From: an uncultured Ectothiorhodospiraceae bacterium
Lineage (GTDB): Bacteria > Bacteroidota > Ignavibacteria > SZUA-365 > GCA-2699105
Reading direction: 5' to 3'
Assembly (NCBI GenBank): GCA_964408855.1
Contig: CAYPBB010000012.1
Location: 19,321-83,320, forward strand
Length of the DNA stretch: 64,000 nt
Shown here one piece after another: positions 23,665 to 64,000 of this stretch. The position numbers and the translations under genes were made by a program. Under the pieces are notes generated by a model. That model ran no database searches. It saw nothing but the letters and a program-made list of their open reading frames with translations, and was not told the origin of the DNA. How positions within the stretch are numbered: position 1 is the first letter of the stretch; the number at the start of each line of letters is the position of its first letter.

Positions 23665-23922
23665 GTGCAACCCCCTGTTGAACATTGGAGCGAAGAATCA
23701 ATCGAAGTCAAGGCGTATAAGTCTGTCGAAAGCGTCCCCACCGTTGAAATGAATGACAGCAACAGACTCGGATACTACGTGTACCTCTACCTTACCGGAC
23801 AGTATTCCTCACTGAAACAGGCTATCAAACTTGCACAGGCGCGGCTTCTGGTTTCCGAGGAGGAAGCTTTCAACAGAATCGCGAACCATCTTCAACAAGC
23901 AGGACTGGAAGTGCAGGCATGA
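23665..23922 (+). CDS. Small hypothetical protein, 85 aa
   Basis: The ORF shares a 4-nt ATGA overlap with the downstream zinc-ribbon gene. No recognisable motifs were seen. Confidence 0.35.
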   Translation: MQPPVEHWSEESIEVKAYKSVESVPTVEMNDSNRLGYYVYLYLTGQYSSLKQAIKLAQARLLVSEEEAFNRIANHLQQAGLEVQA

Positions 23923-24134
23923 ACGAGAATACTTCGCATGCCGGGCAGTTGCGGGATGAAATGCGCCTTTGCCCACAATGCGGCTATGAAATTGCCAATC
24001 CAATGACCGACCGGTGTCCCCGCTGTTTTGCGCCCGTGGCGCGGCGCGAGGTGAATTGCGGAAGTTGTACCCATCAGGGGAATTGCGAATTCGCACACCT
24101 GCAGGCGTCGTTGAACCGTACGAAACAACACTGA
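23919..24134 (+). CDS. Small zinc-ribbon protein, 71 aa
   Basis: It carries CPQCG...CPRCF...NCGSC cysteine pairs. It is translationally coupled to the upstream ORF. Confidence 0.5.
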   Translation: MNENTSHAGQLRDEMRLCPQCGYEIANPMTDRCPRCFAPVARREVNCGSCTHQGNCEFAHLQASLNRTKQH

Positions 24135-24156
24135 ACTTTTATATAATGGTGTAAAT

Positions 24157-24549
24157 ATGACCATCAAAGAAACAATTCAAGGCGATGTCGTGATACTTTC
24201 CCTCAAGGGAAATCTCATGGGCGAGCCCGAGACCTCCGAGCTTCGGGATAAAATAAAAGGACTTCTGACCGACGGCTTTCTGAAAATCGTGCTCGACGCA
24301 TCGGGCGTCAAATGGATGAACAGCTCCGGACTGGGCGCCATTATCTCCGCGCTTACGTCGGTGAATAACAAAGGCGGCGATATACGCATCGCACATGTGA
24401 CCGAAAAAATCAAAAGCCTGTTCATGATCACCCAACTTATCAAGGTGTTCAAGACGTTCGATTCGAACGAACGCGCCGTCGCGAGCTTCATTGTCGATCC
24501 AATAAAGGGCGTCGCGCAGCCTTCCGAGGAAGTGCCGCCCGAGGAATAG
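24157..24549 (+). CDS. STAS-domain anti-sigma-factor antagonist (SpoIIAA-like)
   Basis: The STAS signature reads VVILSLKGNLMGEPE...KIVLDASGVKWMNSSGLGAIISAL. It is about 130 aa. Confidence 0.75.
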   Translation: MTIKETIQGDVVILSLKGNLMGEPETSELRDKIKGLLTDGFLKIVLDASGVKWMNSSGLGAIISALTSVNNKGGDIRIAHVTEKIKSLFMITQLIKVFKTFDSNERAVASFIVDPIKGVAQPSEEVPPEE

Positions 24550-24700: not shown

Positions 24701-25567
24701 CTACCAGCGCGCAATTACTGTCGCGCGCGCTACGCTTCCCGAATGCACAATAACGCCGTATGCTCCGCGGGGCAACGATTGCAGTCCGATTGTCATTCGC
24801 GTTGCATTCGCCTCATACTCTGCAATGGTTTTACCGAGCATGTCAACAAGCAAGACCGACACTCCCGGCTGCGGTTGCGCTGGAAAGCTGACATAGAGTG
24901 TACTCCCTGTAGAGTAGACTTGAATATCCTCTGACAGTATGCTATGCGGGTCGACGCTGCTGACGCCGTTATCTCCCGCAGTGATTGGGGTCCCCGGCGT
25001 TGTCTGCACGGCACAATCCTTGATCTTCATGTTGGGAATATGCTCAGGTATATCGAGCCGTACCCAGCCGTAACACAATCCACCCTGTGTCTGGACGGCG
25101 ACGCCGAGGTAATGATCCATCGCGCCGTCCCATTCAAGACCCGTGAGATCGTTCATCGTGAACAGGATCGAGTTCTGGATCGCGTTGGTGTTCTTCCATG
25201 TACCAGTGGATGAAGGCCCGATGACCGCGCCGAAATCCAGCGCGGCGGCGGTGGTGCCCCATTCGACGAGCATCACACTTTGGACGTCGCCCGCGGTATT
25301 CCAGGCAACTCCGGACAGCAATCCAAACTGCCCCTGCGAGTGAGAGAAGATCAGGTCGTCGCGTCCGTCGCGGTTGAGATCGAGCGAGTATTCGCCGGGA
25401 TTGCCGATTGCCCTGGCAGCGATCACAGTATCCGGTGCGATGTCGGTGTAGAGAATTTGGCCTTCGAGAAGGGAAGGAGAGAGGAGAAGCGCCAGCACGC
25501 AGACCGGCAACAACGCAGTATAACTGTATTTCATAATTACCCCGTAGTGTGATGTTGTAAACTGCAA
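24701..25567 (-). CDS. Secreted protein with an FG-GAP/VCBS-like motif and a T9SS-type C-terminal sorting domain
   Basis: It has a signal peptide (LLPVCVLALLLSPSLLEGQ). A DLNRDGRDDLIF block is present. The C-terminal roughly 70 aa (LYVSFPAQPQPGVSVLLVDMLGKTIAEYE...LPRGAYGVIVHSGSVARATVIARW) resemble Por-secretion tail domains. Confidence 0.5.
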   Translation of the reverse strand: MQFTTSHYGVIMKYSYTALLPVCVLALLLSPSLLEGQILYTDIAPDTVIAARAIGNPGEYSLDLNRDGRDDLIFSHSQGQFGLLSGVAWNTAGDVQSVMLVEWGTTAAALDFGAVIGPSSTGTWKNTNAIQNSILFTMNDLTGLEWDGAMDHYLGVAVQTQGGLCYGWVRLDIPEHIPNMKIKDCAVQTTPGTPITAGDNGVSSVDPHSILSEDIQVYSTGSTLYVSFPAQPQPGVSVLLVDMLGKTIAEYEANATRMTIGLQSLPRGAYGVIVHSGSVARATVIARW

Positions 25568-25669
25568 AACGTTTCGTGATTATTTCATACATTATGAAAT
25601 TGAATTGGAGAATAGCTTTCGCAATTTGATATGTAAAGAGAACTAGTGTCTATCTTTGATTCTTATCTT

Positions 25670-28600
25670 TCAGAGAATAGAAATATTGCGAGCTAGAGGA
25701 CCATGGTAGTTGAACCATATTTCAAACGAAACCTTTGCATTAATATACAATTTATCAAATACCAAATGATCTACATACTTCATTGTGATGTATATGCTAT
25801 CTCCAAATGCATCTCTTGTTATATATCCATACGAGCCACCTAAAGATTTGACCTTGCCAGTAAATATAATGTTTGTAGTATTCTTTAGTGGAAAGCGAGC
25901 TTTTTTTGCAATTGATTGATCAAGTCTCTGAATTTTCAAATTATCAAATATTTCTTGCGCTTCGTCGATTTTGTTATCTTGGTAAAGGAAGCGTGCATAT
26001 AGGAATTGTGCGTCATATCGTTTGTCACCTTTTACGAATGAATTTCTTAGTAAGTGCAATATTTCCAATGTTTCATGTTTCCGTTCGCATAGATATAAAG
26101 CGAGTTGATAAAATGCATCTTTTGCTAATGGATTGTGATCAACACATGCTCGCAGAGTAACTACAGCCTGTTCTTCTTTACCTGCAGATCTATATAGTTT
26201 AGCAAGCCGAATAGCATTGTATTGATTTCGGGGATTTCCATAAAATGCGCTTTCCATTGATTTTATAGCACTTGGGTAATCATTCATTAATTGATAATAC
26301 TTTGATTCGAAATCCTTTATGAATTCCTCGTCACGATGTTTTTGCAATGTATCGAACAATACTCTTTCGATTTCCTTAGCAATTTCATTAACATCGATTG
26401 TCTCATCGTTCACTTTTAGAGCTTGTTCGAACTGGCTCAGCAATATTTTTAAAAGTGTATGGGTTGAGTATAAATCATCAGGATTCGATCGAATCATATC
26501 CTTGACCATTTTTTTTGATTTGTGACGATATGATTCCCTTGTGTGAAGATCGCGCTCCAATTCTGATCTCCAGAAATATATTTCAGACATCGTATGATCA
26601 ATTGTACTGTTACGTGGAGCCAAAGACTTTGCGCGTTTGATGTGTGTTAGTGCCTTATCAAAATTTTTATTTTTGCGCTTCATTTCAAAGATTGCTCTCT
26701 GTTGCCAATAGTAATCAGAGTTTCTATATGATTCTTCTAGGGAGAAATAGAGTTTTTCTGAGTTGTCATCATTTGGAAACATATCTCTTATTGCGGCTGC
26801 TTTGATTAACCCCCTGAATGCCTTATAATCTGACGAGTAGTCCAAATCCAAAGTAAGCAATATCTTTTCGAGTTGATCGTATTTATCGTCTTGATCTATC
26901 AGCACTCTTTCAAATACCTCATTCGCAATATGTGGATGTCGCGCAACATAATTAATGTCTCCAGTTTTACGTGAATATATACTATAGATTATACTTTCAA
27001 GTGGTTTAAATATGCAGGTCTCGAATTCATCGAAGGCAATATTATGAACTCTACTGATAAAACCAGCACGCACCTCAACATTTAATCGATGCAATACGCA
27101 TATTGTCAAATAAACTTTTTTCGCGGATTCGTTTGTGATAGAATTGTACTCATCCAATATTATATCAGAAAAAGGCTTGCCTAACGTCGCTTCATGAAGT
27201 GCTACCAATAGTTGACGTCCGCTTCTGCTCTCCAGTTCCTTGTAACGTTCTTCTGTGGCTAATGACGACAAATAGCCCAATGAATTGTGCGTTTCAAGCA
27301 ATTTTAACAACTCAGTGATTTCTGATCGAGACAAATATTCGAGATCATACGATTTCGTTACCATGGAATTGATCATGTCACGTTTATCATTCAACTCATT
27401 ATAGCGATCGGTCGCAAATATTGTTATCGGTAGATCGTCTTGAATTGCAGCTTTTAGTATTGATGAAATGGTGTCCATCCATGTGGATGCAGAGTCAATA
27501 AATAAATATATACGATCGCCGCATAGTTCGTAAAGTTCTTTGATAGCTTTGTAATCTGGAGAAGCATCGTTTCGCAGGTAAAGGCACAAAACATCGTAAG
27601 CCACTGCACCATCCCATGCCATTCTGCGAAGAAGAATGGACTTCCCAGAACCAGCATAGCCCTGTATTAGTATTAATTGCTGATTGTAGCTGCAAATGTC
27701 TTCAGCATCGAGAAATATATCAGTTTCGATTCGATACGCCAAATCACGTTTAACATCAAGATTGCACTCGATTGGAGCCCAATTGTTTGAATACCCTCTG
27801 TAGAAATCTTTTGGCGAAACAGTTTCCTTGTTCATTGATGCATGGACAAATTCGAAATCGCGATTTAGTAATATATTGATCATATCACTATGAGCCAGAT
27901 CAGTTCCACCTCTGTACCGCCTTTTAATTGGATGATCAACTTCTATGACTTTTGTAAGTAGAGACTTGTTAGCGTCGCTTATTTCATGATTCAGTGCAAT
28001 CATGAAATTTCCAAAAGTAGCATTGATCGTTGTCACTCGCTTGGATTCCCAATAACGAACTACTTCCTCGCTGATATTTGGGGCAACATAATAATATCGC
28101 GGCCTGGATATTGCCATTCTATCCATTCTATTTAAAAATATCCGAATATCGCTGTCATCCAAACTAGAGCCAATAAATACAATTGGATACCGCCGTCCAT
28201 GTTCCTCGAGTTTTGTAAATAAACTATTCCTGTTATTTTCATAATTTGCATATTGGTCGTGATCTAGAATAAGGGGTGTATTGATGTCATATATATTGTC
28301 AATACATCCATGTAGTTTGACATACATCAAATAGCTCTCATCTATTAGCAGCTCCTCAACTCGTTCGCCATCTTTTTTGAAAACAGCTAACTTTTGTACT
28401 GATTTTTTGCATTCATCGTATGCATTCTCTATTATCAAATCGTAGTTAATAGTGAAAATAGCTTTCCAAGGTATTTCCGGAAGAAGTAAATGGCATTTTG
28501 CAGGCATGAACGATTTAAAAATCTCTCTGATATATTCTTGAACGCTTATTAGATCATGTTCACTTATTGCTAAGCCAGCAACAGTTGCCAAATTGGAAGT

Positions 28601-28768
28601 ATTATATTTCCCAGATAGAAATCGTGTACTAAGCATTTTCGCGAGATCACTTGATAGAGGTGGCTTACTCCCATCGTTTGAGCGAGCGTCTCTTGTAACC
28701 CCAGCTCCAAAAAAAAGTACTACTTTTCTTTCGAGAATATTATTGAGCAATGTATCGGGTATATTCAT
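25670..28768 (-). CDS. SIR2-like domain, STAND-type P-loop NTPase and TPR-like helical array with a cold-shock-like C-terminal domain (1032 aa); candidate antiphage defence protein
   Basis: The N-terminal SIR2-type Rossmann domain has VVLFFGAGVT, FTINYD and KLHGC motifs. Walker A (QGYAGSGKS, residues 370-377) and Walker B (RIYLFIDSAS) are present. A long helical-repeat C-terminal half follows. The last roughly 65 aa (GKVKSLGGSYGYITRDAFGDSIYI) look like a cold-shock domain. The gene is markedly AT-rich compared with its flanks. Confidence 0.8.
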   Translation of the reverse strand: MNIPDTLLNNILERKVVLFFGAGVTRDARSNDGSKPPLSSDLAKMLSTRFLSGKYNTSNLATVAGLAISEHDLISVQEYIREIFKSFMPAKCHLLLPEIPWKAIFTINYDLIIENAYDECKKSVQKLAVFKKDGERVEELLIDESYLMYVKLHGCIDNIYDINTPLILDHDQYANYENNRNSLFTKLEEHGRRYPIVFIGSSLDDSDIRIFLNRMDRMAISRPRYYYVAPNISEEVVRYWESKRVTTINATFGNFMIALNHEISDANKSLLTKVIEVDHPIKRRYRGGTDLAHSDMINILLNRDFEFVHASMNKETVSPKDFYRGYSNNWAPIECNLDVKRDLAYRIETDIFLDAEDICSYNQQLILIQGYAGSGKSILLRRMAWDGAVAYDVLCLYLRNDASPDYKAIKELYELCGDRIYLFIDSASTWMDTISSILKAAIQDDLPITIFATDRYNELNDKRDMINSMVTKSYDLEYLSRSEITELLKLLETHNSLGYLSSLATEERYKELESRSGRQLLVALHEATLGKPFSDIILDEYNSITNESAKKVYLTICVLHRLNVEVRAGFISRVHNIAFDEFETCIFKPLESIIYSIYSRKTGDINYVARHPHIANEVFERVLIDQDDKYDQLEKILLTLDLDYSSDYKAFRGLIKAAAIRDMFPNDDNSEKLYFSLEESYRNSDYYWQQRAIFEMKRKNKNFDKALTHIKRAKSLAPRNSTIDHTMSEIYFWRSELERDLHTRESYRHKSKKMVKDMIRSNPDDLYSTHTLLKILLSQFEQALKVNDETIDVNEIAKEIERVLFDTLQKHRDEEFIKDFESKYYQLMNDYPSAIKSMESAFYGNPRNQYNAIRLAKLYRSAGKEEQAVVTLRACVDHNPLAKDAFYQLALYLCERKHETLEILHLLRNSFVKGDKRYDAQFLYARFLYQDNKIDEAQEIFDNLKIQRLDQSIAKKARFPLKNTTNIIFTGKVKSLGGSYGYITRDAFGDSIYITMKYVDHLVFDKLYINAKVSFEIWFNYHGPLARNISIL

Positions 28769-28796
28769 GTTGGCATGATATTTGTTAAATAAATAG

Positions 28797-28835
28797 ATAC
28801 TTGACAGCTAAAACATTGAATTAGCTGTCAAGTAT
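28797..28835 (-). repeat. Perfect 14-bp inverted repeat (atacttgacagcta ... tagctgtcaagtat), a candidate terminator or operator at the island boundary
   Basis: The inverted repeat was read directly from the sequence. It lies between the YbjN-like stop (28846) and the SIR2-STAND start (28768). Confidence 0.5.
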
Positions 28836-28845
28836 CAAAAATCGA

Positions 28846-29436
28846 TTATTTCTTCTTCGCTGCGGGCTTTTTCGCTGGGGCTTTGGGAGCCGGAGCAGCT
28901 TTTTTGGCGGGAGCTGCTTTCTTTGCCGGAGCCTTCTTTGCTGGCGCTTTGGCAGGGGGAGCGACAGGCATCGGTAATTCTTCCATACCCATGATGGTAG
29001 AATTGGCGTCAACGGCGCGTCTGCCGCCGGCCATTCTCCTGATCTCATCGTCGCTTTCGTCGGCGACAAACGCAACCGTCGCGATCGTCGTACGCAGTTC
29101 GTTGGCGTCAAGGTTCGCGCCGGCAATCGTATGGCTGTAGGTAATGGTATCGTCGAACAGCAGTCCGTACGCGCCCATGAGCGTATTGGCGTTCAGACGC
29201 ATCAGATGCTGAAGAAGTTTCGGACCGATCTTCGCGTCCTGCACCACGTACGCCATCGCCTTCACGAGGCATTCGTCCTTATGAAGCGGCAACACGTACA
29301 CATGCACCGCCGCGGAGCCGCGCCTGACCACCCATTCGCCGTCGAATTCCTGTACGATATCCTTATACTGTTTGCCGTAGGTATCCTTCAGGTACTGCTT
29401 GATCTTGCTTTTGGTTTGATTCACGATATTTGCCAT
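28846..29436 (-). CDS. YbjN-like domain protein with a C-terminal histone-H1-like Lys/Ala/Pro-rich tail
   Basis: The globular N-terminal roughly 150 aa (WVVRRGSAAVHVYVLP...CLVKAMAYVVQD...NTLMGAYGLLFDD) resemble the YbjN putative sensory-transduction-regulator fold. The C-terminal 40 aa read PAKAPAKKAPAKKAAPAKKAAPAPKAPAKKPAAKKK. It lies 15 nt downstream of pspA on the same strand. Confidence 0.55.
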   Translation of the reverse strand: MANIVNQTKSKIKQYLKDTYGKQYKDIVQEFDGEWVVRRGSAAVHVYVLPLHKDECLVKAMAYVVQDAKIGPKLLQHLMRLNANTLMGAYGLLFDDTITYSHTIAGANLDANELRTTIATVAFVADESDDEIRRMAGGRRAVDANSTIMGMEELPMPVAPPAKAPAKKAPAKKAAPAKKAAPAPKAPAKKPAAKKK

Positions 29437-30494: not shown

Positions 30495-31229
30495 ATGCTG
30501 ACGCTTTATTTAGTATGTCTGATGTTCGGCGGTACGCTGCTGGCGATCTCGCTGTTCACCGGCGGCGATCACGATTCCGGCCACGGCGGTATCGGGCACG
30601 GCGACGGCGACCTTCACCTCGGCGACACCCATATCGGCGGTGATGTGCATGGCGAGATCGGTCACGGGGGAGGCGACGCGCATATCCTCGACTCAGGCGG
30701 AGCGGATGCGCATACGGACATCGCCACACATGCCGATTTCCACGGCGGCGGTCACGACGTAGCCCATACAGGTGATGTTCACACCGAAGTGCAGGGGCAG
30801 AACGTAGGCGAAGCGTTCAAATTCATCAGTCTCCGCAGCCTCATCTTTTTCACCGCGTTTTTCGGTTTAACCGGCAGCGTCCTCACCTGGCTGACCATAG
30901 GTTCCGTGCTGACATTCGTATCCGCATTAGGCATGGGTTCTTTCGCATCGGTGTTGACGCACAAACTGATGAACTATTTCAAACGCACCGAATCGGGCGA
31001 GAGCATCGATCTCAAGCAGCTCGAAGGGCATTCCGCGCAGATCGTGATTCCGCCCACGAAGACGGCGAAAGGAAAGATCATGCTGGAAGCGCACGGACAG
31101 CGGCATGTGTTGCTGGCGCTTGTAGACGCCGATTCCGAGAAGGAAACATTTCCGCCGAATGCCTGGGTACTCATCCTCCGGGTCGAGGGGCAACTCGCAT
31201 ATATTATCGAAGCAGATTATATCCAATGA
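30495..31229 (+). CDS. NfeD-like (YqiJ-type) membrane protein with a His/Gly/Asp-rich insert
   Basis: It has an N-terminal TM segment, a low-complexity HGGIGHGDGDLHLGDTHIGGDVHGEIGHGGGDAH... region, two or more further TM segments, and a C-terminal OB-fold-like NfeD domain (GKIMLEAHGQRHVLLALVDAD...VLILRVEGQLAYII). It is followed immediately by a flotillin gene. Confidence 0.65.
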   Translation: MLTLYLVCLMFGGTLLAISLFTGGDHDSGHGGIGHGDGDLHLGDTHIGGDVHGEIGHGGGDAHILDSGGADAHTDIATHADFHGGGHDVAHTGDVHTEVQGQNVGEAFKFISLRSLIFFTAFFGLTGSVLTWLTIGSVLTFVSALGMGSFASVLTHKLMNYFKRTESGESIDLKQLEGHSAQIVIPPTKTAKGKIMLEAHGQRHVLLALVDADSEKETFPPNAWVLILRVEGQLAYIIEADYIQ

Positions 31230-60818: not shown

Positions 60819-61862
60819 TTGTTTATTTCAAACAGAGACAAGAAATACCGCCAAAGGCGCTGTCTCGATGATTTCGCGGGAGTGAATGATGTCGAGACAT
60901 TCCACACTCATTTTACGAAGGGTATCGATGTGACTGTACCTTGTAGCCAATCGCGCAGATATCAAGCGATCTTCGTTCTGGTTCTCGTAGTTATAATGTA
61001 TTGCAATATATCTGTCGAAGCACAAACAGTGACAAACGAGGTGACCGCCGAACTTCGGCTTCGAGGTATCGCAAAGAAGTACGGCGGGTTCATCTTCGAC
61101 GTCAAGGTGACCAACAACACCGACTTCCCTATTCGCCTGTACTACACCGGCACAGACGAAAACCTTGTTCTGACCGACAACAAAGGCGGACGCTGGGAAA
61201 CGGTATTGCCTGTGCGATCAATTGGGAGCCCGTACAAAATACTTGAACATCAGACGTTTTCGGATGCTTTTGAGGTAACAACACTTGGCGTGACGGATAC
61301 AGTAATTGACAACTACCGGTTTGGACCTGTTTTTGAGGCAGGAGAGTATACAGCAACATTTCCGCTATACTATCAATATGCAAACTCTTATAATCCAGCA
61401 ATAAGACTAGAAGTTGCGACTCGCTTCGCCGTACTCCCAGCAACAAAGGATGAAATTGACGCTGTGGATAGATTTAGGGTTCTAGTAGCCGCGGTCGAGC
61501 TACGATTCAACGGAATACCTGAGCAGGATAGCGAAAGGTTAAAGGACGAGTATTGGGAATTGAGATCTCATATTGAAATTTGCAAGGGAATGGCCGTTCA
61601 TCGAAGGTTTATGCAATCTGTTCTTACCGTAGTAATGAAAAATCACGAACAGCAACCAGAGGAAAGGAGGCGCTTATTACATGAGTATATCTTAATGTAT
61701 CCAGATGCTCCTTATGTTCGCCGTGCTGTCAATGAGCTTCAGAATATTGGTGTTGGCGAAGCGTTTCAAGACGAAATAAATTCAATACATCCTGAATCTC
61801 TTGCTGTTAGACTATTAAATAATACGGCAAGTGTTGGGTTCAACAATATTCAAAGGAGGTAG
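60819..61862 (+). CDS. Hypothetical secreted protein
   Basis: A probable signal peptide (AIFVLVLVVIMYCNISVEAQ) is present. The true start may be the in-frame GTG at 60930. GC content drops within the gene. Confidence 0.4.
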   Translation: MFISNRDKKYRQRRCLDDFAGVNDVETFHTHFTKGIDVTVPCSQSRRYQAIFVLVLVVIMYCNISVEAQTVTNEVTAELRLRGIAKKYGGFIFDVKVTNNTDFPIRLYYTGTDENLVLTDNKGGRWETVLPVRSIGSPYKILEHQTFSDAFEVTTLGVTDTVIDNYRFGPVFEAGEYTATFPLYYQYANSYNPAIRLEVATRFAVLPATKDEIDAVDRFRVLVAAVELRFNGIPEQDSERLKDEYWELRSHIEICKGMAVHRRFMQSVLTVVMKNHEQQPEERRRLLHEYILMYPDAPYVRRAVNELQNIGVGEAFQDEINSIHPESLAVRLLNNTASVGFNNIQRR

Positions 61863-61865
61863 ATC

Positions 61866-62672
61866 ATGAGCAACAAAATCACTTTTGTATTCGTAATTTT
61901 ATCAATACTCATCGCTTGCACAGAGAAACCGACTGAACCGGCGCAGCGTTATGCAACTAATATGCCGGGTGAATTATTCTTTGGTCCATATAACTCAGAT
62001 AATCCTTATGATTCGGTAGGAATACAGCACAATATATGCGTCAATTATGCATTAAGCTGTATGCAGTCCACGGATACCACAAAAGAACTATGTCTAGCAT
62101 CTATTCGTAGTGCGTTAATTAATTATGGAGTGAATCATACATCGTTAAGTCGATCGGCTCTTGAGGTAATTTACGATTCTTCATATGCACTTGTGATTAG
62201 AACACGCTATTCACAACCATCGGAACTGAATTCTGATCCTGGAATTTGGAACCCTTCGGAGCATGCATTTATTAGACGGCTTTCCGTTATACTGACATCC
62301 AGCCTCTCCTTTGATATTGTTCGAGATAGTATTGCAGTAGTAGAAGGAGAGATTTTATCATCATCTAATAGATCTCGGAGAATTTTGGAATTCGTTTCTA
62401 TCTTGAAGCATTCATGCTACTATTGGAATGCTTCTGCATCCGGATTATCCAAGCAGTCATTCTCCAAATATACGAACTGCCAAGAAGAATACATCTATCC
62501 TGATATAGTAAGAGTGGCCGATGATATTGGGTATAAATATGGCATTGAAATTGGAGATAACGATTTTTGTCTTGCAAAAGAACTTGCTTGTATGTCGTCG
62601 ACTGTTGCAGCCATTATGTATTATTCAGGTTCCGAGTATCCCATCCATATTACTGTATTCCTTGGATTATGA
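61866..62672 (+). CDS. Hypothetical lipoprotein encoded in an AT-rich region
   Basis: It begins MSNKITFVFVILSILIACTEKP, which is a lipobox. Several Cys are present. Confidence 0.45.
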   Translation: MSNKITFVFVILSILIACTEKPTEPAQRYATNMPGELFFGPYNSDNPYDSVGIQHNICVNYALSCMQSTDTTKELCLASIRSALINYGVNHTSLSRSALEVIYDSSYALVIRTRYSQPSELNSDPGIWNPSEHAFIRRLSVILTSSLSFDIVRDSIAVVEGEILSSSNRSRRILEFVSILKHSCYYWNASASGLSKQSFSKYTNCQEEYIYPDIVRVADDIGYKYGIEIGDNDFCLAKELACMSSTVAAIMYYSGSEYPIHITVFLGL

Positions 62673-62710
62673 TAACATTGCCTATTGCACACACTAACAA
62701 ACAACGAAAT

Positions 62711-63652
62711 ATGCATATGAAAACACTACTTAATCTCACAATGCTTGTGGCTTGTCTGTCGTCAATTACGATAGCGCAGCCCGGCTTAATTACTCGGCAC
62801 CCTTCCGAAGATTCATGCGAAGTAATAGAATCGATGCTCACTCTTCCAATACCCATCATTCGAAATGATATGAGTTGGGAAGTGGTGACAACCTATCTTG
62901 TTGCTGATACGGTATGCAAAGCACTAAATAAGATGCAAATCGATAGTCTTGTCAAACTACTATCAGACGATTCTCTGCTCGTAGCGATCCGAAGTTGCCT
63001 AAAATGCCAGGATTACGATTATCTTTTATATTACCATCAAACCATACAAACGATCCTCAACAAGCCAGACAATTACAAGGCCTCATTCTTCGATCTGGAG
63101 AAATCGCTTTTCGCGGAATGGGAAAATCGACATGGGCCTTTTAGCAAAATCACTAATATTCTTCGCAAGTGCATAATTATAAGGGCAAGAGTTACAAATG
63201 TTATTGAGAGAACTGATATCGGTTTTAGTGGAGATATACTCCCACCGTTTGATACCACTGTAACGCATACATTCTGTGCTGAATTGCAACTTGTGGATAT
63301 TATTTTTGGAAATCCACGCTACTACTTTATCCGCAATTCATCCGAAGACGGCGATCAACGCATGCAGTGTTCTTGGGGTACATTTGAGTCACTTCCAATA
63401 AATGGCGTTTTCGAACCACCTTTGACATCTTACGTACCCTTGCAAATTAACAGTGAGTATATATTTGTTATCTCAATGGGACCACTTCTTTTTCGCCAAC
63501 CAAATGTATGCAATATCACTCCATGGCGTATATACACATTCCCTATTGATAGCGATGAAATAGTATTTGATCCTGACAACACACTTGGTAATGGCACCGA
63601 AGGCGCCTACCAAGCATTTAAGTACCACATACAATCATTAATAGGCTTTTAG
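62711..63652 (+). CDS. Hypothetical secreted Cys-containing protein encoded in an AT-rich region
   Basis: The start is taken at MHMKTLLNLTMLVACLSSITIAQP, which gives a signal peptide. The upstream part of ORF 62567..63652 overlaps the previous gene. Confidence 0.45.
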   Translation: MHMKTLLNLTMLVACLSSITIAQPGLITRHPSEDSCEVIESMLTLPIPIIRNDMSWEVVTTYLVADTVCKALNKMQIDSLVKLLSDDSLLVAIRSCLKCQDYDYLLYYHQTIQTILNKPDNYKASFFDLEKSLFAEWENRHGPFSKITNILRKCIIIRARVTNVIERTDIGFSGDILPPFDTTVTHTFCAELQLVDIIFGNPRYYFIRNSSEDGDQRMQCSWGTFESLPINGVFEPPLTSYVPLQINSEYIFVISMGPLLFRQPNVCNITPWRIYTFPIDSDEIVFDPDNTLGNGTEGAYQAFKYHIQSLIGF

Positions 63653-63669
63653 ATAAGAAGGGTGTTATT

Positions 63670-64000
63670 ATGATACAGCATTTCATTTCCCATATAGCAT
63701 TACTTGTTTGCTTGACACAGATCTCTTTTACTCAATGCCTCCCTGAGTATAGTATATCATGCAAGCATGCACTTACAGGCGCCAATATCTGCATGCCTGT
63801 AAATGACAATTTAGATTATATAACAAAATGTCGATTGCCCATTAATATATGCGTTCAAGAAAGATACGAAGAAAAACCCCCACAAGCTACGCTTTTGTCC
63901 GCTCACATTTGCCCACATTCAGGATCCGATATTTTTGGAATGCTTAAACAGGCTACTGCATGGGCTGCAAACAGCTTGTGGATGATATGCAATAATGTGC
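63670..64000 (+). CDS. Hypothetical secreted Cys-rich protein, partial (runs off the window end)
   Basis: It begins MIQHFISHIALLVCLTQISFTQC, which is a signal peptide. There are 10 or more Cys in 110 aa. Confidence 0.4.
   Translation, partial: MIQHFISHIALLVCLTQISFTQCLPEYSISCKHALTGANICMPVNDNLDYITKCRLPINICVQERYEEKPPQATLLSAHICPHSGSDIFGMLKQATAWAANSLWMICNNV

What the first reader, a model, noticed from the sequence alone, without database searches (positions are those of the whole stretch)
25568..28845. A single-gene AT-rich islet encodes a SIR2 / STAND-NTPase / TPR giant protein, a candidate antiphage defence system
The 1032-aa ORF (minus strand, 25670..28768) starts with a SIR2-type Rossmann domain. 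It carries the GAG loop (VVLFFGAGVT), the Asn/Asp pair (FTINYD) and a His (KLHGC), all consistent with defence-type SIR2 NADases. A P-loop NTPase follows, with Walker A GYAGSGKS and Walker B IYLFIDSAS. A long helical or TPR-like repeat region follows in turn. This architecture parallels the SIR2-STAND (Avs-like) antiviral NLR-type proteins, in which a C-terminal sensor triggers NAD+ depletion. The gene's codon composition is strikingly AT-rich compared with the roughly 58% GC flanks, which suggests recent horizontal acquisition. It is inserted between a T9SS cargo gene and the psp/flotillin membrane-stress cluster. No companion gene shares its composition, so it appears to be a single-gene system.
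Basis: partly seen in the sequence, partly recalled or inferred. Interest (0 to 1): 0.9.

Follow-up and report, generated by a model that had tools for sequence, protein, structure and literature searches.

The report
SAMD9-like SIR2–STAND antiviral sensor gene
A single foreign-looking gene encodes a large bacterial immune-type switch protein, with an NAD-destroying SIR2 domain, an ATP-driven switch, a helical repeat arm and a cold-shock-type nucleic-acid-binding end; this is the same layout as the core of the human antiviral protein SAMD9, and it belongs to a common but untested branch of a known phage-defence class.

Summary
A 1032-aa ORF (25670..28768, minus strand) fills a 3.3-kb AT-rich islet: gene GC is 36.5% and GC3 32%, against 53-56% and 64-69% in the neighbours. 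Pfam finds SIR2_2 (E 1.4e-17), nSTAND_NTPase5 (E 1.4e-21) and TPR above threshold. NACHT and AAA_16 match only at the P-loop.

A family profile matches CspE at E 7e-10 and CspA at E 1.3e-9 (hhalign against CspA, 97%).

The SIR2 residues G21, G23, N108, D110 and H153 and the NTPase residues K376 and R455 are invariant in 52 homologues; D425 is nearly invariant. N108, K376, D425 and R455 align with EfAvs5 N141, K379, D426 and R453. Mutation of the first three abolishes defence.

The predicted structure (pLDDT 86) best matches EfAvs5 and, over the longest span, human SAMD9 cryo-EM structures.

The family is large: 1,552 representatives at E<=1e-30, about 1030 aa each. Across the nine homologue loci examined it has no conserved partner gene, it often sits beside restriction-modification, toxin-antitoxin or PARIS genes, and it occurs on conjugative plasmids.

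Relatives of the host have this slot empty.

Verdict: a new member of the known SIR2-STAND (Avs5-like, SAMD9-like) kind, from a subfamily with no experimental work that I could find. Interest 0.4.

The parts
25535..28845 (.). AT-rich one-gene islet. It comprises the gene plus a 102-nt downstream and a 77-nt upstream intergenic stretch, and it probably also includes the first 33 nt of the annotated TTG-start ORF of the neighbouring gene.
   Evidence: GC in 50-nt and 400-nt windows drops from 0.52-0.58 to 0.22-0.41 between about 25.53 and 28.85 kb. The neighbour is called at 277 aa (ATG start) in locus L002. The slot between the YbjN-like gene and the h85/STAS block is empty, or holds one unrelated small gene, in 8 related metagenome loci.
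25670..28768 (-). SIR2-nSTAND5-TPR-CSD gene, 1032 aa plus stop codon.
   Evidence: ORF list. An identical protein, P0001, lies on two further contigs. Homologues align from residue 1 to the end.
27989..28768 (-). aa 1-260: complete SIR2 (SIR2_2) domain, the predicted NAD+ hydrolase effector. It has the GAG loop (G21, G23), N108, D110 and H153.
27809..27988 (-). aa 261-320: poorly conserved linker between SIR2 and the NTPase. It occupies the same position as the delta domain of SAMD9.
   Evidence: Lowest conservation in the protein, with mean pairwise identity 0.29. pLDDT dips to 62-77 here. The SAMD9 domain order is taken from PMC13600222.
27374..27808 (-). aa 321-465: STAND nucleotide-binding domain. 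Walker A is GYAGSGKS (K376), Walker B is LFID (D425), and the sensor-1 arginine is R455.
   Evidence: Pfam nSTAND_NTPase5, E 1.4e-21. K376 and R455 are invariant and D425 nearly invariant. They align with EfAvs5 K379, D426 and R453 after allowing for a 20-residue offset in the PDB chain.
26729..27373 (-). aa 466-680: helical domain 1, winged-helix domain and helical domain 2 of the NOD module. The invariant R610-H611 pair follows the winged-helix beta-hairpin and is a candidate for the MHD-type histidine.
   Evidence: Secondary structure of the model. This is the most conserved part of the protein, with mean pairwise identity 0.52. The assignment of H611 is an inference.
25889..26728 (-). aa 681-960: array of about 14 helices in TPR-like pairs, the presumed sensor and autoinhibitory arm.
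   Evidence: Pfam TPR_19 and TPR_14 above threshold at aa 829-890. The model shows helices from H685 to H955. The family profile matches consensus TPR proteins.
25673..25888 (-). aa 961-1032: C-terminal cold-shock-type OB domain, a five-strand barrel. Aromatic residues sit at the RNP1 and RNP2 positions (Y980, Y982, Y993).
   Evidence: The window protein alone is sub-threshold for Pfam CSD (E 0.0028, 17.9 bits). A family profile of this region hits CspE at 6.7e-10, CspA at 1.3e-9 and CspB at 1e-8. hhalign against E. coli CspA gives probability 97.2%. PF00313 is precomputed for about a quarter of the listed homologues. The model has strands E969-1031.
28796..28836 (-). Perfect 16-bp hairpin with a 9-nt loop, followed by a U-rich tract. 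It starts 10 nt after the stop of the YbjN-like gene and ends 27 nt before the ATG of the SIR2-STAND gene. It is probably the terminator of the psp-ybjN transcription unit.
   Evidence: Inverted repeat I3, 100% complementary. RNA fold gives -24.6 kcal/mol with z -6.5, and none of 200 shuffles folds as well. The function is inferred.

Best explanation
The gene encodes a stand-alone, horizontally acquired antiviral STAND (NLR-like) protein of the SIR2-STAND kind. In the resting state the TPR-OB arm folds back on the ATP-bound NOD and keeps the N-terminal SIR2 domain from pairing. When an infection-derived ligand binds the TPR-OB arm, the NOD opens and oligomerises. This brings SIR2 domains together and switches on NAD+ hydrolysis. 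NAD+ depletion then halts the infected cell and the phage (abortive infection).

Shown here: the domain architecture, the intact catalytic and nucleotide-binding residues, the structural kinship with EfAvs5 and SAMD9, mobility of the gene, and its lack of a partner gene.

Inferred: NADase activity, oligomerisation, the identity of the trigger, and the antiphage phenotype.
For: Domains are SIR2_2, nSTAND_NTPase5 and TPR above Pfam thresholds, plus a CSD/OB at the C-terminus.

In 52 homologues the SIR2 residues G21, G23, N108, D110 and H153 are invariant, as are the NTPase residues G373, G375, K376 and R455; D425 is nearly invariant.

N108, K376, D425 and R453-equivalent R455 align with EfAvs5 N141, K379, D426 and R453. 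Mutation of N141, K379 or D426 abolishes EfAvs5 defence. H153 aligns with the catalytic H146 of the NADase KomC.

The NOD profile finds EfAvs5 as its only significant PDB sequence hit (E 1.7e-8).

Genomic behaviour is typical of defence genes. No neighbour is conserved. Five of seven chromosomal homologue loci carry restriction-modification, toxin-antitoxin, ThsB-TIR, HEPN-MNT or PARIS-like genes, IS elements or conjugation genes within 10 kb. Full-length copies lie on conjugative plasmids next to IS elements, VapBC and Abi genes. The gene is AT-richer than its flanks in 8 of 9 homologue loci.

In this window it occupies a slot that is empty or differently filled in 8 related loci.
Against: There is no experimental evidence for any member of this subfamily in the literature I could search.

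PADLOC reports no Avs model for the window protein or for seven homologues, only SIR2-level matches. My control was uninformative, however, because an EfAvs5 NOD fragment also hit nothing in PADLOC.

The sensor region is conserved across phyla, with TPR pairwise identity 0.39 and CSD 0.36, and protein length is nearly constant. This is unlike the poorly conserved sensors of characterised Avs5 proteins.

In this window the gene has no defence neighbours.

Only 27 nt separate a strong hairpin from the start codon, and the sigma-70 scan found no more sites than in shuffled sequence. Expression in this host is therefore unproven.
Confidence: 0.72

Rival explanations
1. The machine is the same, but the trigger is a nucleic acid rather than a phage protein. 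The C-terminal cold-shock domain, together with the TPR arm, binds single-stranded RNA or DNA made during infection, or a damaged host RNA. That binding releases the NOD and activates the SIR2 NADase.
For: The C-terminal domain is a bona fide CSD by profile (CspE E 7e-10, CspA E 1.3e-9; hhalign 97%). It keeps aromatic residues at the RNP1 and RNP2 positions of CspA: Y/F, F, F and mostly H in the family, and Y980, Y982 and Y993 in the window protein. The sensor half is conserved in bacteria and in an archaeal MAG, and protein length is constant. That fits a generic ligand better than a fast-evolving phage protein. Some Avs5 clades protect against an ssRNA phage.
Against: In SAMD9 the homologous-looking OB domain is documented as a protein-protein element. 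It is anchored on TPR2 and contacts SIR2 during activation. All Avs5 triggers known so far are proteins: T7 gp1.7 and JADA. In the window protein the RNP2 histidine is a threonine. I could not inspect model coordinates to see whether the RNP face is exposed.
Confidence: 0.2
2. This is not an immune protein. It is a regulated sirtuin (a protein deacylase or ADP-ribosyltransferase) whose activity on cellular targets is gated by a STAND switch, as part of stress or RNA-metabolism signalling.
For: NCBI names some homologues 'SIR2 family NAD-dependent protein deacylase'. STAND-TPR proteins also act in bacterial signal transduction (PMC5445408). The gene lies next to the psp/flotillin stress genes.
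Confidence: 0.05
3. The SIR2 domain is only a dimerisation scaffold, as in human SAMD9, and the protein has lost or never had an enzymatic effector. Alternatively, the gene is a silent passenger in this genome.
For: SAMD9's SIR2-like domain does not bind NAD and acts through SIR2/SIR2 and OB/SIR2 contacts. No promoter could be assigned here.
Against: Unlike SAMD9, this SIR2 domain is complete, and its NAD-site residues are invariant across 52 diverged sequences. Such conservation is not expected for a scaffold. The protein has no other candidate effector domain. The ORF is intact and identical on three independent assemblies.
Confidence: 0.05

Closest known systems
Avs5 / AVAST type 5 (SIR2-STAND): EfAvs5, EcAvs5, PaAvs5-1/2/3
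   Same: N-terminal SIR2_2 NADase effector, then a STAND NOD, then a helical-repeat C-terminal sensor, all in one gene. The catalytic Asn, Walker A Lys, Walker B Asp and sensor-1 Arg align. EfAvs5 is the best Foldseek hit (E 2e-25) and the only significant PDB sequence hit of the NOD (E 1.7e-8). The likely mechanism is the same: oligomerisation or filamentation activates NAD+ hydrolysis (PMC11897194, PMC12931631).
   Different: Characterised Avs5 proteins are about 830-850 aa. Their NOD is annotated nSTAND3, and their C-terminal repeat region is short and poorly conserved, with no OB domain reported. The window protein is 1032 aa. Its NOD scores 77 bits on nSTAND5, and nSTAND3 does not appear in the hit list down to E 1. 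It has about 280 aa of TPR plus a cold-shock domain, and its sensor half is conserved across phyla. Sequence identity to EfAvs5 is 13-17%.
Human SAMD9/SAMD9L and the bacterial SAMD9-like STANDs ('Avs5 from Desulfobacula', Avs6, Avs9)
   Different: The window protein has no SAM domain and no AlbA_2 tRNase domain, so SIR2 is its only candidate effector. [quoted passage not shown] There is no sequence-level match of the NOD to SAMD9, only a marginal one for the OB (E 0.2). Identity is 12-14%. I could not test whether A0A1F9N8W4, the 'Avs5 from Desulfobacula' of PMC12680541, belongs to this exact family.
Other SIR2 NADase defence proteins: ThsA (Thoeris), DSR2, KomC (Kongming), SIR2-HerA
   Different: These proteins are regulated by SLOG, HEAT-like, KomB or HerA partners, not by a fused STAND NTPase. 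The matches cover only aa 1-250.

Membership tests
Defence-type SIR2 (Pfam SIR2_2, PF13289) NADases | Profile match above the curated threshold | tested here: met
   64.5 bits against a cut-off of 24.5, E 1.4e-17, aa 103-248.
Defence-type SIR2 (Pfam SIR2_2, PF13289) NADases | Catalytic Asn and His and the glycine-rich NAD loop are present | tested here: met
   G21, G23, N108, D110 and H153 are invariant in 52 sequences. H153 aligns with KomC H146 and N108 with KomC N107 and EfAvs5 N141.
Defence-type SIR2 (Pfam SIR2_2, PF13289) NADases | NAD+ hydrolase activity | not testable with these tools
   This needs biochemistry.
STAND NTPases, nSTAND_NTPase5 (PF25199) | Profile match above the curated threshold | tested here: met
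   77.3 bits against a cut-off of 34, E 1.4e-21, aa 321-464. The same holds for the plasmid homologues, at 86-100 bits.
STAND NTPases, nSTAND_NTPase5 (PF25199) | Walker A, Walker B and sensor-1 Arg, followed by a helical domain and a winged-helix domain | tested here: met
Avs5 / AVAST type 5 | Single polypeptide with an N-terminal SIR2 effector, a STAND NOD and a C-terminal repeat sensor | tested here: met
   EfAvs5 is the top Foldseek hit.
Avs5 / AVAST type 5 | NOD of the nSTAND3 type, as in EfAvs5 and PaAvs5 | tested here: not met
   nSTAND3 is absent from the hit list down to E 1, while nSTAND5 scores 77 bits. As a control, an EfAvs5 NOD fragment scores 37.7 bits on nSTAND3 and 34.1 bits on nSTAND5. 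The two models are therefore neighbours, and this criterion separates subfamilies rather than kinds.
Avs5 / AVAST type 5 | Recognition by a curated defence-system model (PADLOC or DefenseFinder Avs5) | tested here: inconclusive
   PADLOC 2.0.0 gives only ThsA, Dsr2 and PDC-S25 SIR2-level hits for the window protein and for 7 homologues. The EfAvs5 NOD control fragment also hit nothing. DefenseFinder is not available here.
Avs5 / AVAST type 5 | Phage protection that depends on the SIR2 and Walker motifs | not testable with these tools
   This needs plaque assays.
SAMD9 family core (SIR2-like, STAND, TPR, OB) | Same order of the four core modules, with a cold-shock-like OB at the C-terminus | tested here: met
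   The architecture is as described in PMC5445408 and PMC13600222.
SAMD9 family core (SIR2-like, STAND, TPR, OB) | Whole-chain structural similarity | tested here: met
SAMD9 family core (SIR2-like, STAND, TPR, OB) | Significant sequence similarity to SAMD9 | tested here: not met
   The NOD profile gives no SAMD9 hit at E<=10. The OB profile gives only E 0.2-0.3 over 21 residues. The whole-protein profile does not place SAMD9 in its best 60.
SAMD9 family core (SIR2-like, STAND, TPR, OB) | AlbA_2 tRNase effector | tested here: not met
   The protein starts directly with SIR2, and no AlbA_2 hit was found.
Cold-shock domain (PF00313) | Profile match | tested here: met
   The window protein alone is sub-threshold (17.9 bits against 27). 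The family profile hits CspE, CspA and CspB at 7e-10 to 1e-8, and hhalign gives 97%.

The most novel reading that the evidence does not exclude
This subfamily is the prokaryotic version of the complete SAMD9 core in which the SIR2 domain is still a working NADase. Its conserved TPR-cold-shock-domain arm senses a nucleic acid (phage ssRNA or ssDNA, or damaged host RNA) rather than a phage protein. That would make it a nucleic-acid-sensing bacterial NLR. It would also be a simple model, with NAD+ as read-out, for the still unknown ligand and activation step of human SAMD9/SAMD9L.
Probability: 0.18. Interest if true: 0.7.

Novelty: new member of a known kind. Interest (0 to 1): 0.4.

Why it matters
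SIR2-STAND proteins are established phage-defence sensors. Their structural kinship with human SAMD9/9L, mutations in which cause MIRAGE and related bone-marrow syndromes, has recently been noted. The subfamily found here is large and remarkably uniform, and it is also present on Klebsiella, E. coli, Vibrio and Acinetobacter plasmids.

It differs from the tested Avs5 proteins in keeping the full SAMD9-type C-terminal half (a long TPR array plus a cold-shock OB domain) together with an apparently active SIR2 domain. If it is shown to work, it would extend the Avs5 class to a widespread clade that PADLOC 2.0.0 did not flag as an Avs system. It would also give a tractable bacterial system for asking what the TPR-OB module of SAMD9-like proteins recognises.

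For this genome, it documents a clean one-gene acquisition into a variable slot.

Tried and rejected
Search for an empty site:
- The first genome-contig scan, using the YbjN-like neighbour as query, found no relative.
- The second scan, using MetRS, returned 80 loci. The closest is only 69% identical, and synteny ends after the next gene.
- Exact look-ups of the two flanking proteins gave no contig lacking the islet.
- A metagenome scan with PspA finally gave 8 syntenic loci.

Insertion mechanism: there is no tRNA in the whole window, no integrase or transposase next to the gene, and no flanking direct repeats beyond chance-level short matches.

Promoter: the sigma-70 scan found no more sites than in shuffled sequence (16 against 13 +/- 3.9). 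I made no promoter claim.

NACHT or AAA_16 membership is rejected. These models match only the P-loop, below threshold.

DSR1/DSR2 and ThsA membership is rejected. The matches cover the SIR2 domain only.

NCBIfam gave nothing above cut-off.

- The AlphaFold-database fold library was not available. I therefore could not compare the model with A0A1F9N8W4 or with Avs6 and Avs9.
- The supplement of PMC12680541 is not held.
- The viral fold library gave only generic TPR and AAA hits.
- The phage collection gave no match.

Literature searches for 'nSTAND5', 'STAND NTPase 5' and SIR2+STAND+cold shock domain+TPR found nothing relevant.


Full report
OBSERVATION

The minus-strand ORF 25670..28768 encodes 1032 aa.

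GC in 400-nt windows falls from 0.50-0.58 to 0.33-0.41 between 25.6 and 28.8 kb. Gene GC is 0.365 with GC3 0.32. MetRS, the putative T9SS cargo gene, the YbjN-like gene, PspA and the flotillin gene have GC 0.53-0.56 and GC3 0.64-0.69. The window background in 1-kb windows is 0.518 +/- 0.034.

The trough covers only this gene and its two short intergenic flanks (50-nt windows).

DOMAINS

Pfam gives the following above curated thresholds:
- SIR2_2 at aa 103-248, 64.5 bits.
- nSTAND_NTPase5 at aa 321-464, 77.3 bits.
- TPR_19 and TPR_14 at aa 829-890.

NACHT and AAA_16 match only about 20-30 residues around the P-loop and are below threshold. PADLOC recognises only the SIR2 part, through ThsA models (E 3.5e-17), and reports no Avs model. 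NCBIfam has nothing above cut-off.

The window protein has a weak CSD hit at aa 970-1030 (E 0.0028). A profile of this region from 30 homologues (A2) hits CspE, CspA and CspB at 7e-10 to 1e-8. hhalign against E. coli CspA gives 97% probability. Aromatic residues stand at the RNP1 and RNP2 positions.

The architecture is therefore SIR2, linker, NBD-HD-WHD-HD, TPR, then a cold-shock OB domain.

FAMILY

The word-indexed search found 533 homologues. The best 120 are nearly all about 1030 aa, 36-42% identical and aligned over about 100% of the query, and all 120 carry SIR2_2 plus nSTAND5; about a quarter also carry a precomputed CSD hit. Sources include Ignavibacteriaceae, Desulfobacterales, Verrucomicrobiota, Nitrospirota, Flavobacteriia, Sphingobacteriia and an Odinarchaeia MAG.

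An exhaustive profile search of 1.84 billion cluster representatives gave 1,552 proteins at E<=1e-30. The best 150 all align along the profile; most are full-length at about 1030-1050 aa, and some are shorter, apparently truncated sequences of 600-930 aa.

In a 52-sequence alignment (A1):
- The SIR2 residues G21, G23, N108, D110 and H153 are invariant.
- The NTPase residues G373, G375, K376 and R455 are invariant, and D425 is nearly so.
- R610-H611, after the winged-helix hairpin, are invariant.

Mean pairwise identity by region is SIR2 0.49, linker 0.29, NBD 0.46, HD/WHD 0.52, TPR 0.39 and CSD 0.36. The sensor half is thus only moderately less conserved than the catalytic half.

STRUCTURE

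AlphaFold2 with A1 gave mean pLDDT 86.2 and pTM 0.75.

Foldseek against the PDB:
- EfAvs5, 'SIR2-STAND' (9jap): E 2e-25, TM 0.27-0.32.
- Six human SAMD9 cryo-EM chains: E 1e-22 to 2e-20, TM 0.41-0.45 over about 1200 columns.
- AVAST5 filament (9nc9): E 1e-16.
- DSR2: E 1e-10, with low whole-chain TM (0.21-0.24).

RELATION TO Avs5

By sequence, the family profile hits EfAvs5 in two places: SIR2 at 4.9e-10 and NOD at 2.3e-7. A NOD-only profile (A3) has EfAvs5 as its only significant PDB hit, at E 1.7e-8.

After allowing for the 20-residue offset of the PDB chain, N108, K376, D425 and R455 align with EfAvs5 N141, K379, D426 and R453. N141A, K379A and D426A abolish EfAvs5 defence (PMC11897194). 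H153 aligns with KomC H146.

The characterised Avs5 proteins differ, however. PaAvs5-1 has 828 aa and the EfAvs5 PDB chain 869 residues. Their NOD is annotated nSTAND3. Their C-terminal helical region is short and poorly conserved, and no OB domain is reported (PMC11897194, PMC12931631).

As a control, an EfAvs5 NOD fragment scores 37.7 bits on nSTAND3 and 34.1 bits on nSTAND5. The two Pfam models are close neighbours. The window protein is a core nSTAND5 member, whereas EfAvs5 sits between the two models.

RELATION TO SAMD9

SAMD9/9L are described as SAM, AlbA_2 (tRNase), SIR2-like, STAND, TPR and a cold-shock-like OB domain, with bacterial relatives that lack some N-terminal domains (PMC5445408).

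Recent cryo-EM work (PMC13600222) shows three things. The SIR2-like domain of SAMD9 lacks the NAD-binding lid. The OB domain is anchored on TPR2. SIR2/SIR2 and OB/SIR2 contacts are needed for activation.

PMC12680541 reports that SAMD9 is structurally similar to 'Avs5 from Desulfobacula sp.' (A0A1F9N8W4, called AVAST type V by DefenseFinder), to Avs6 and to Avs9. PMC12803255 notes that the Avs5 sensor clusters with SAMD9.

The window protein shares the full SIR2-NOD-TPR-OB order and the whole-chain fold. It lacks AlbA_2, keeps a complete and conserved SIR2 domain, and shows no significant sequence match to SAMD9.

It is plausible, but untested, that A0A1F9N8W4 belongs to this same family. The AlphaFold-database library was unavailable and the paper's supplement is not held.

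GENOMIC BEHAVIOUR

Seven chromosomal homologue loci share no neighbour. Within 10 kb they carry:
- a Type ISP/MmeI-like restriction enzyme and an IS110 element (L083);
- an IS3 element and an AAA_16 protein (L085);
- an IS3 element, HicAB and VapBC (L086);
- a Type I restriction-modification system, ThsB-TIR and HEPN-MNT (L087);
- a relaxase, a coupling protein, a serine recombinase, HigB and a second nSTAND5-like protein (L088);
- MmeI/Eco57I-like genes and an AAA_15+DUF4276 (PARIS-like) pair (L089);
- mostly housekeeping genes (L084).

Full-length relatives at 28-35% identity lie on 15 plasmid records, and 15 of the 24 matching plasmid records are typed conjugative. The hosts are Klebsiella, Escherichia, Vibrio, Psychrobacter and Acinetobacter. 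On the two plasmids examined they sit between IS elements or beside VapBC, an integrase and an Abi gene. No phage record carries the gene.

The gene is AT-richer than its flanks in 8 of 9 homologue loci.

THE INSERTION SITE

Eight metagenome loci have PspA 69-83% identical to the window's. They keep the order PspA, YbjN-like, [slot], h85, STAS on one strand. The slot is 0.38-0.44 kb and empty in three of them, holds one unrelated small gene in four, and is 1.16 kb with no convincing gene in L096. None has the SIR2-STAND gene or the putative T9SS cargo gene.

In the window the slot holds both genes. The h85-STAS block is also inverted relative to PspA-YbjN and is joined to MetRS. The islet therefore sits at a variable slot and rearrangement junction.

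No tRNA, integrase or meaningful flanking repeat marks the boundaries.

A perfect 16-bp hairpin (-24.6 kcal/mol, z -6.5) lies between the YbjN-like stop codon and the ATG, only 27 nt upstream of the ATG. No promoter could be assigned.

CONCLUSION

This is a stand-alone, horizontally acquired SIR2-STAND protein, and the most likely mechanism is trigger-induced oligomerisation that activates NAD+ depletion.

It is best filed as a new member of the known SIR2-STAND (Avs5-like, SAMD9-like) kind. It belongs to a large subfamily (nSTAND5 plus a long TPR array plus CSD) for which I found no experimental work.

What the TPR-CSD arm recognises is open. A protein trigger, as in the known Avs5 proteins, is the default assumption. 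A nucleic-acid trigger acting through the cold-shock domain is the most novel reading that the evidence does not exclude.

Noticed in passing
window 61400-64000 (runs off the window end): A second AT-rich patch, with GC 0.38-0.40 against a background of 0.52. It holds three hypothetical ORFs on the plus strand (60819..61862, 61866..62672, 62567..63652) that look secreted or lipoprotein-like and have no Pfam hit. It may be another foreign islet.
   Followed up: partly
window 28796-28836: A perfect 16-bp hairpin with a 9-nt loop (RNA dG -24.6 kcal/mol, z -6.5) followed by a U-rich tract. It lies 10 nt after the stop of the YbjN-like gene and 27 nt before the SIR2-STAND start codon. It is probably the psp-ybjN terminator. 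If so, the defence gene may be expressed only by read-through or from a promoter that overlaps the hairpin.
   Followed up: partly
window 23665-24549 versus loci L090, L092, L094, L096, L098, L100, L118, L158: The h85-STAS gene pair is inverted relative to PspA-YbjN when compared with eight related metagenome loci. In the window it is joined to MetRS, which is not nearby in those relatives. The islet lies exactly at this rearrangement junction.
   Followed up: partly
window 28846-29436 (-): The YbjN/TY-Chap1-like protein carries a Lys/Ala/Pro-rich tail resembling histone H1 (AKKAPAKKAAPAKK...), encoded by degenerate 15-18-nt tandem units. The tail varies in length in relatives.
   Followed up: no
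window 30495-31229 (+): A 244-aa protein directly upstream of the flotillin gene, in the position usually held by NfeD. It has a long His/Gly/Asp-rich N-terminal region (HGGIGHGDGDLHLGDTHIGGDVHGE...) and no Pfam hit. It might bind metal.
   Followed up: no
L088 964-5598 (Parapedobacter defluvii, GCA_014642075.1): A second, 1544-aa protein with a weak nSTAND5 NTPase hit (26.5 bits) and no recognised effector domain. It lies 4.4 kb from the SIR2-STAND homologue, inside a conjugative element that also carries a relaxase, a coupling protein, a serine recombinase and HigB.
   Followed up: partly
PADLOC model CSD_V and NCBIfam retron Se72 effector, matched at aa 971-1035 of homologues P0002, P0101 and P0113 and at aa 980-1031 of the window protein: The C-terminal cold-shock domain also gives weak matches to stand-alone CSD effector models used for defence systems: PADLOC CSD_V at E 1.5e-5 to 5e-3, and NCBIfam retron Se72 effector at E 0.07. 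Cold-shock domains therefore recur in defence contexts.
   Followed up: no
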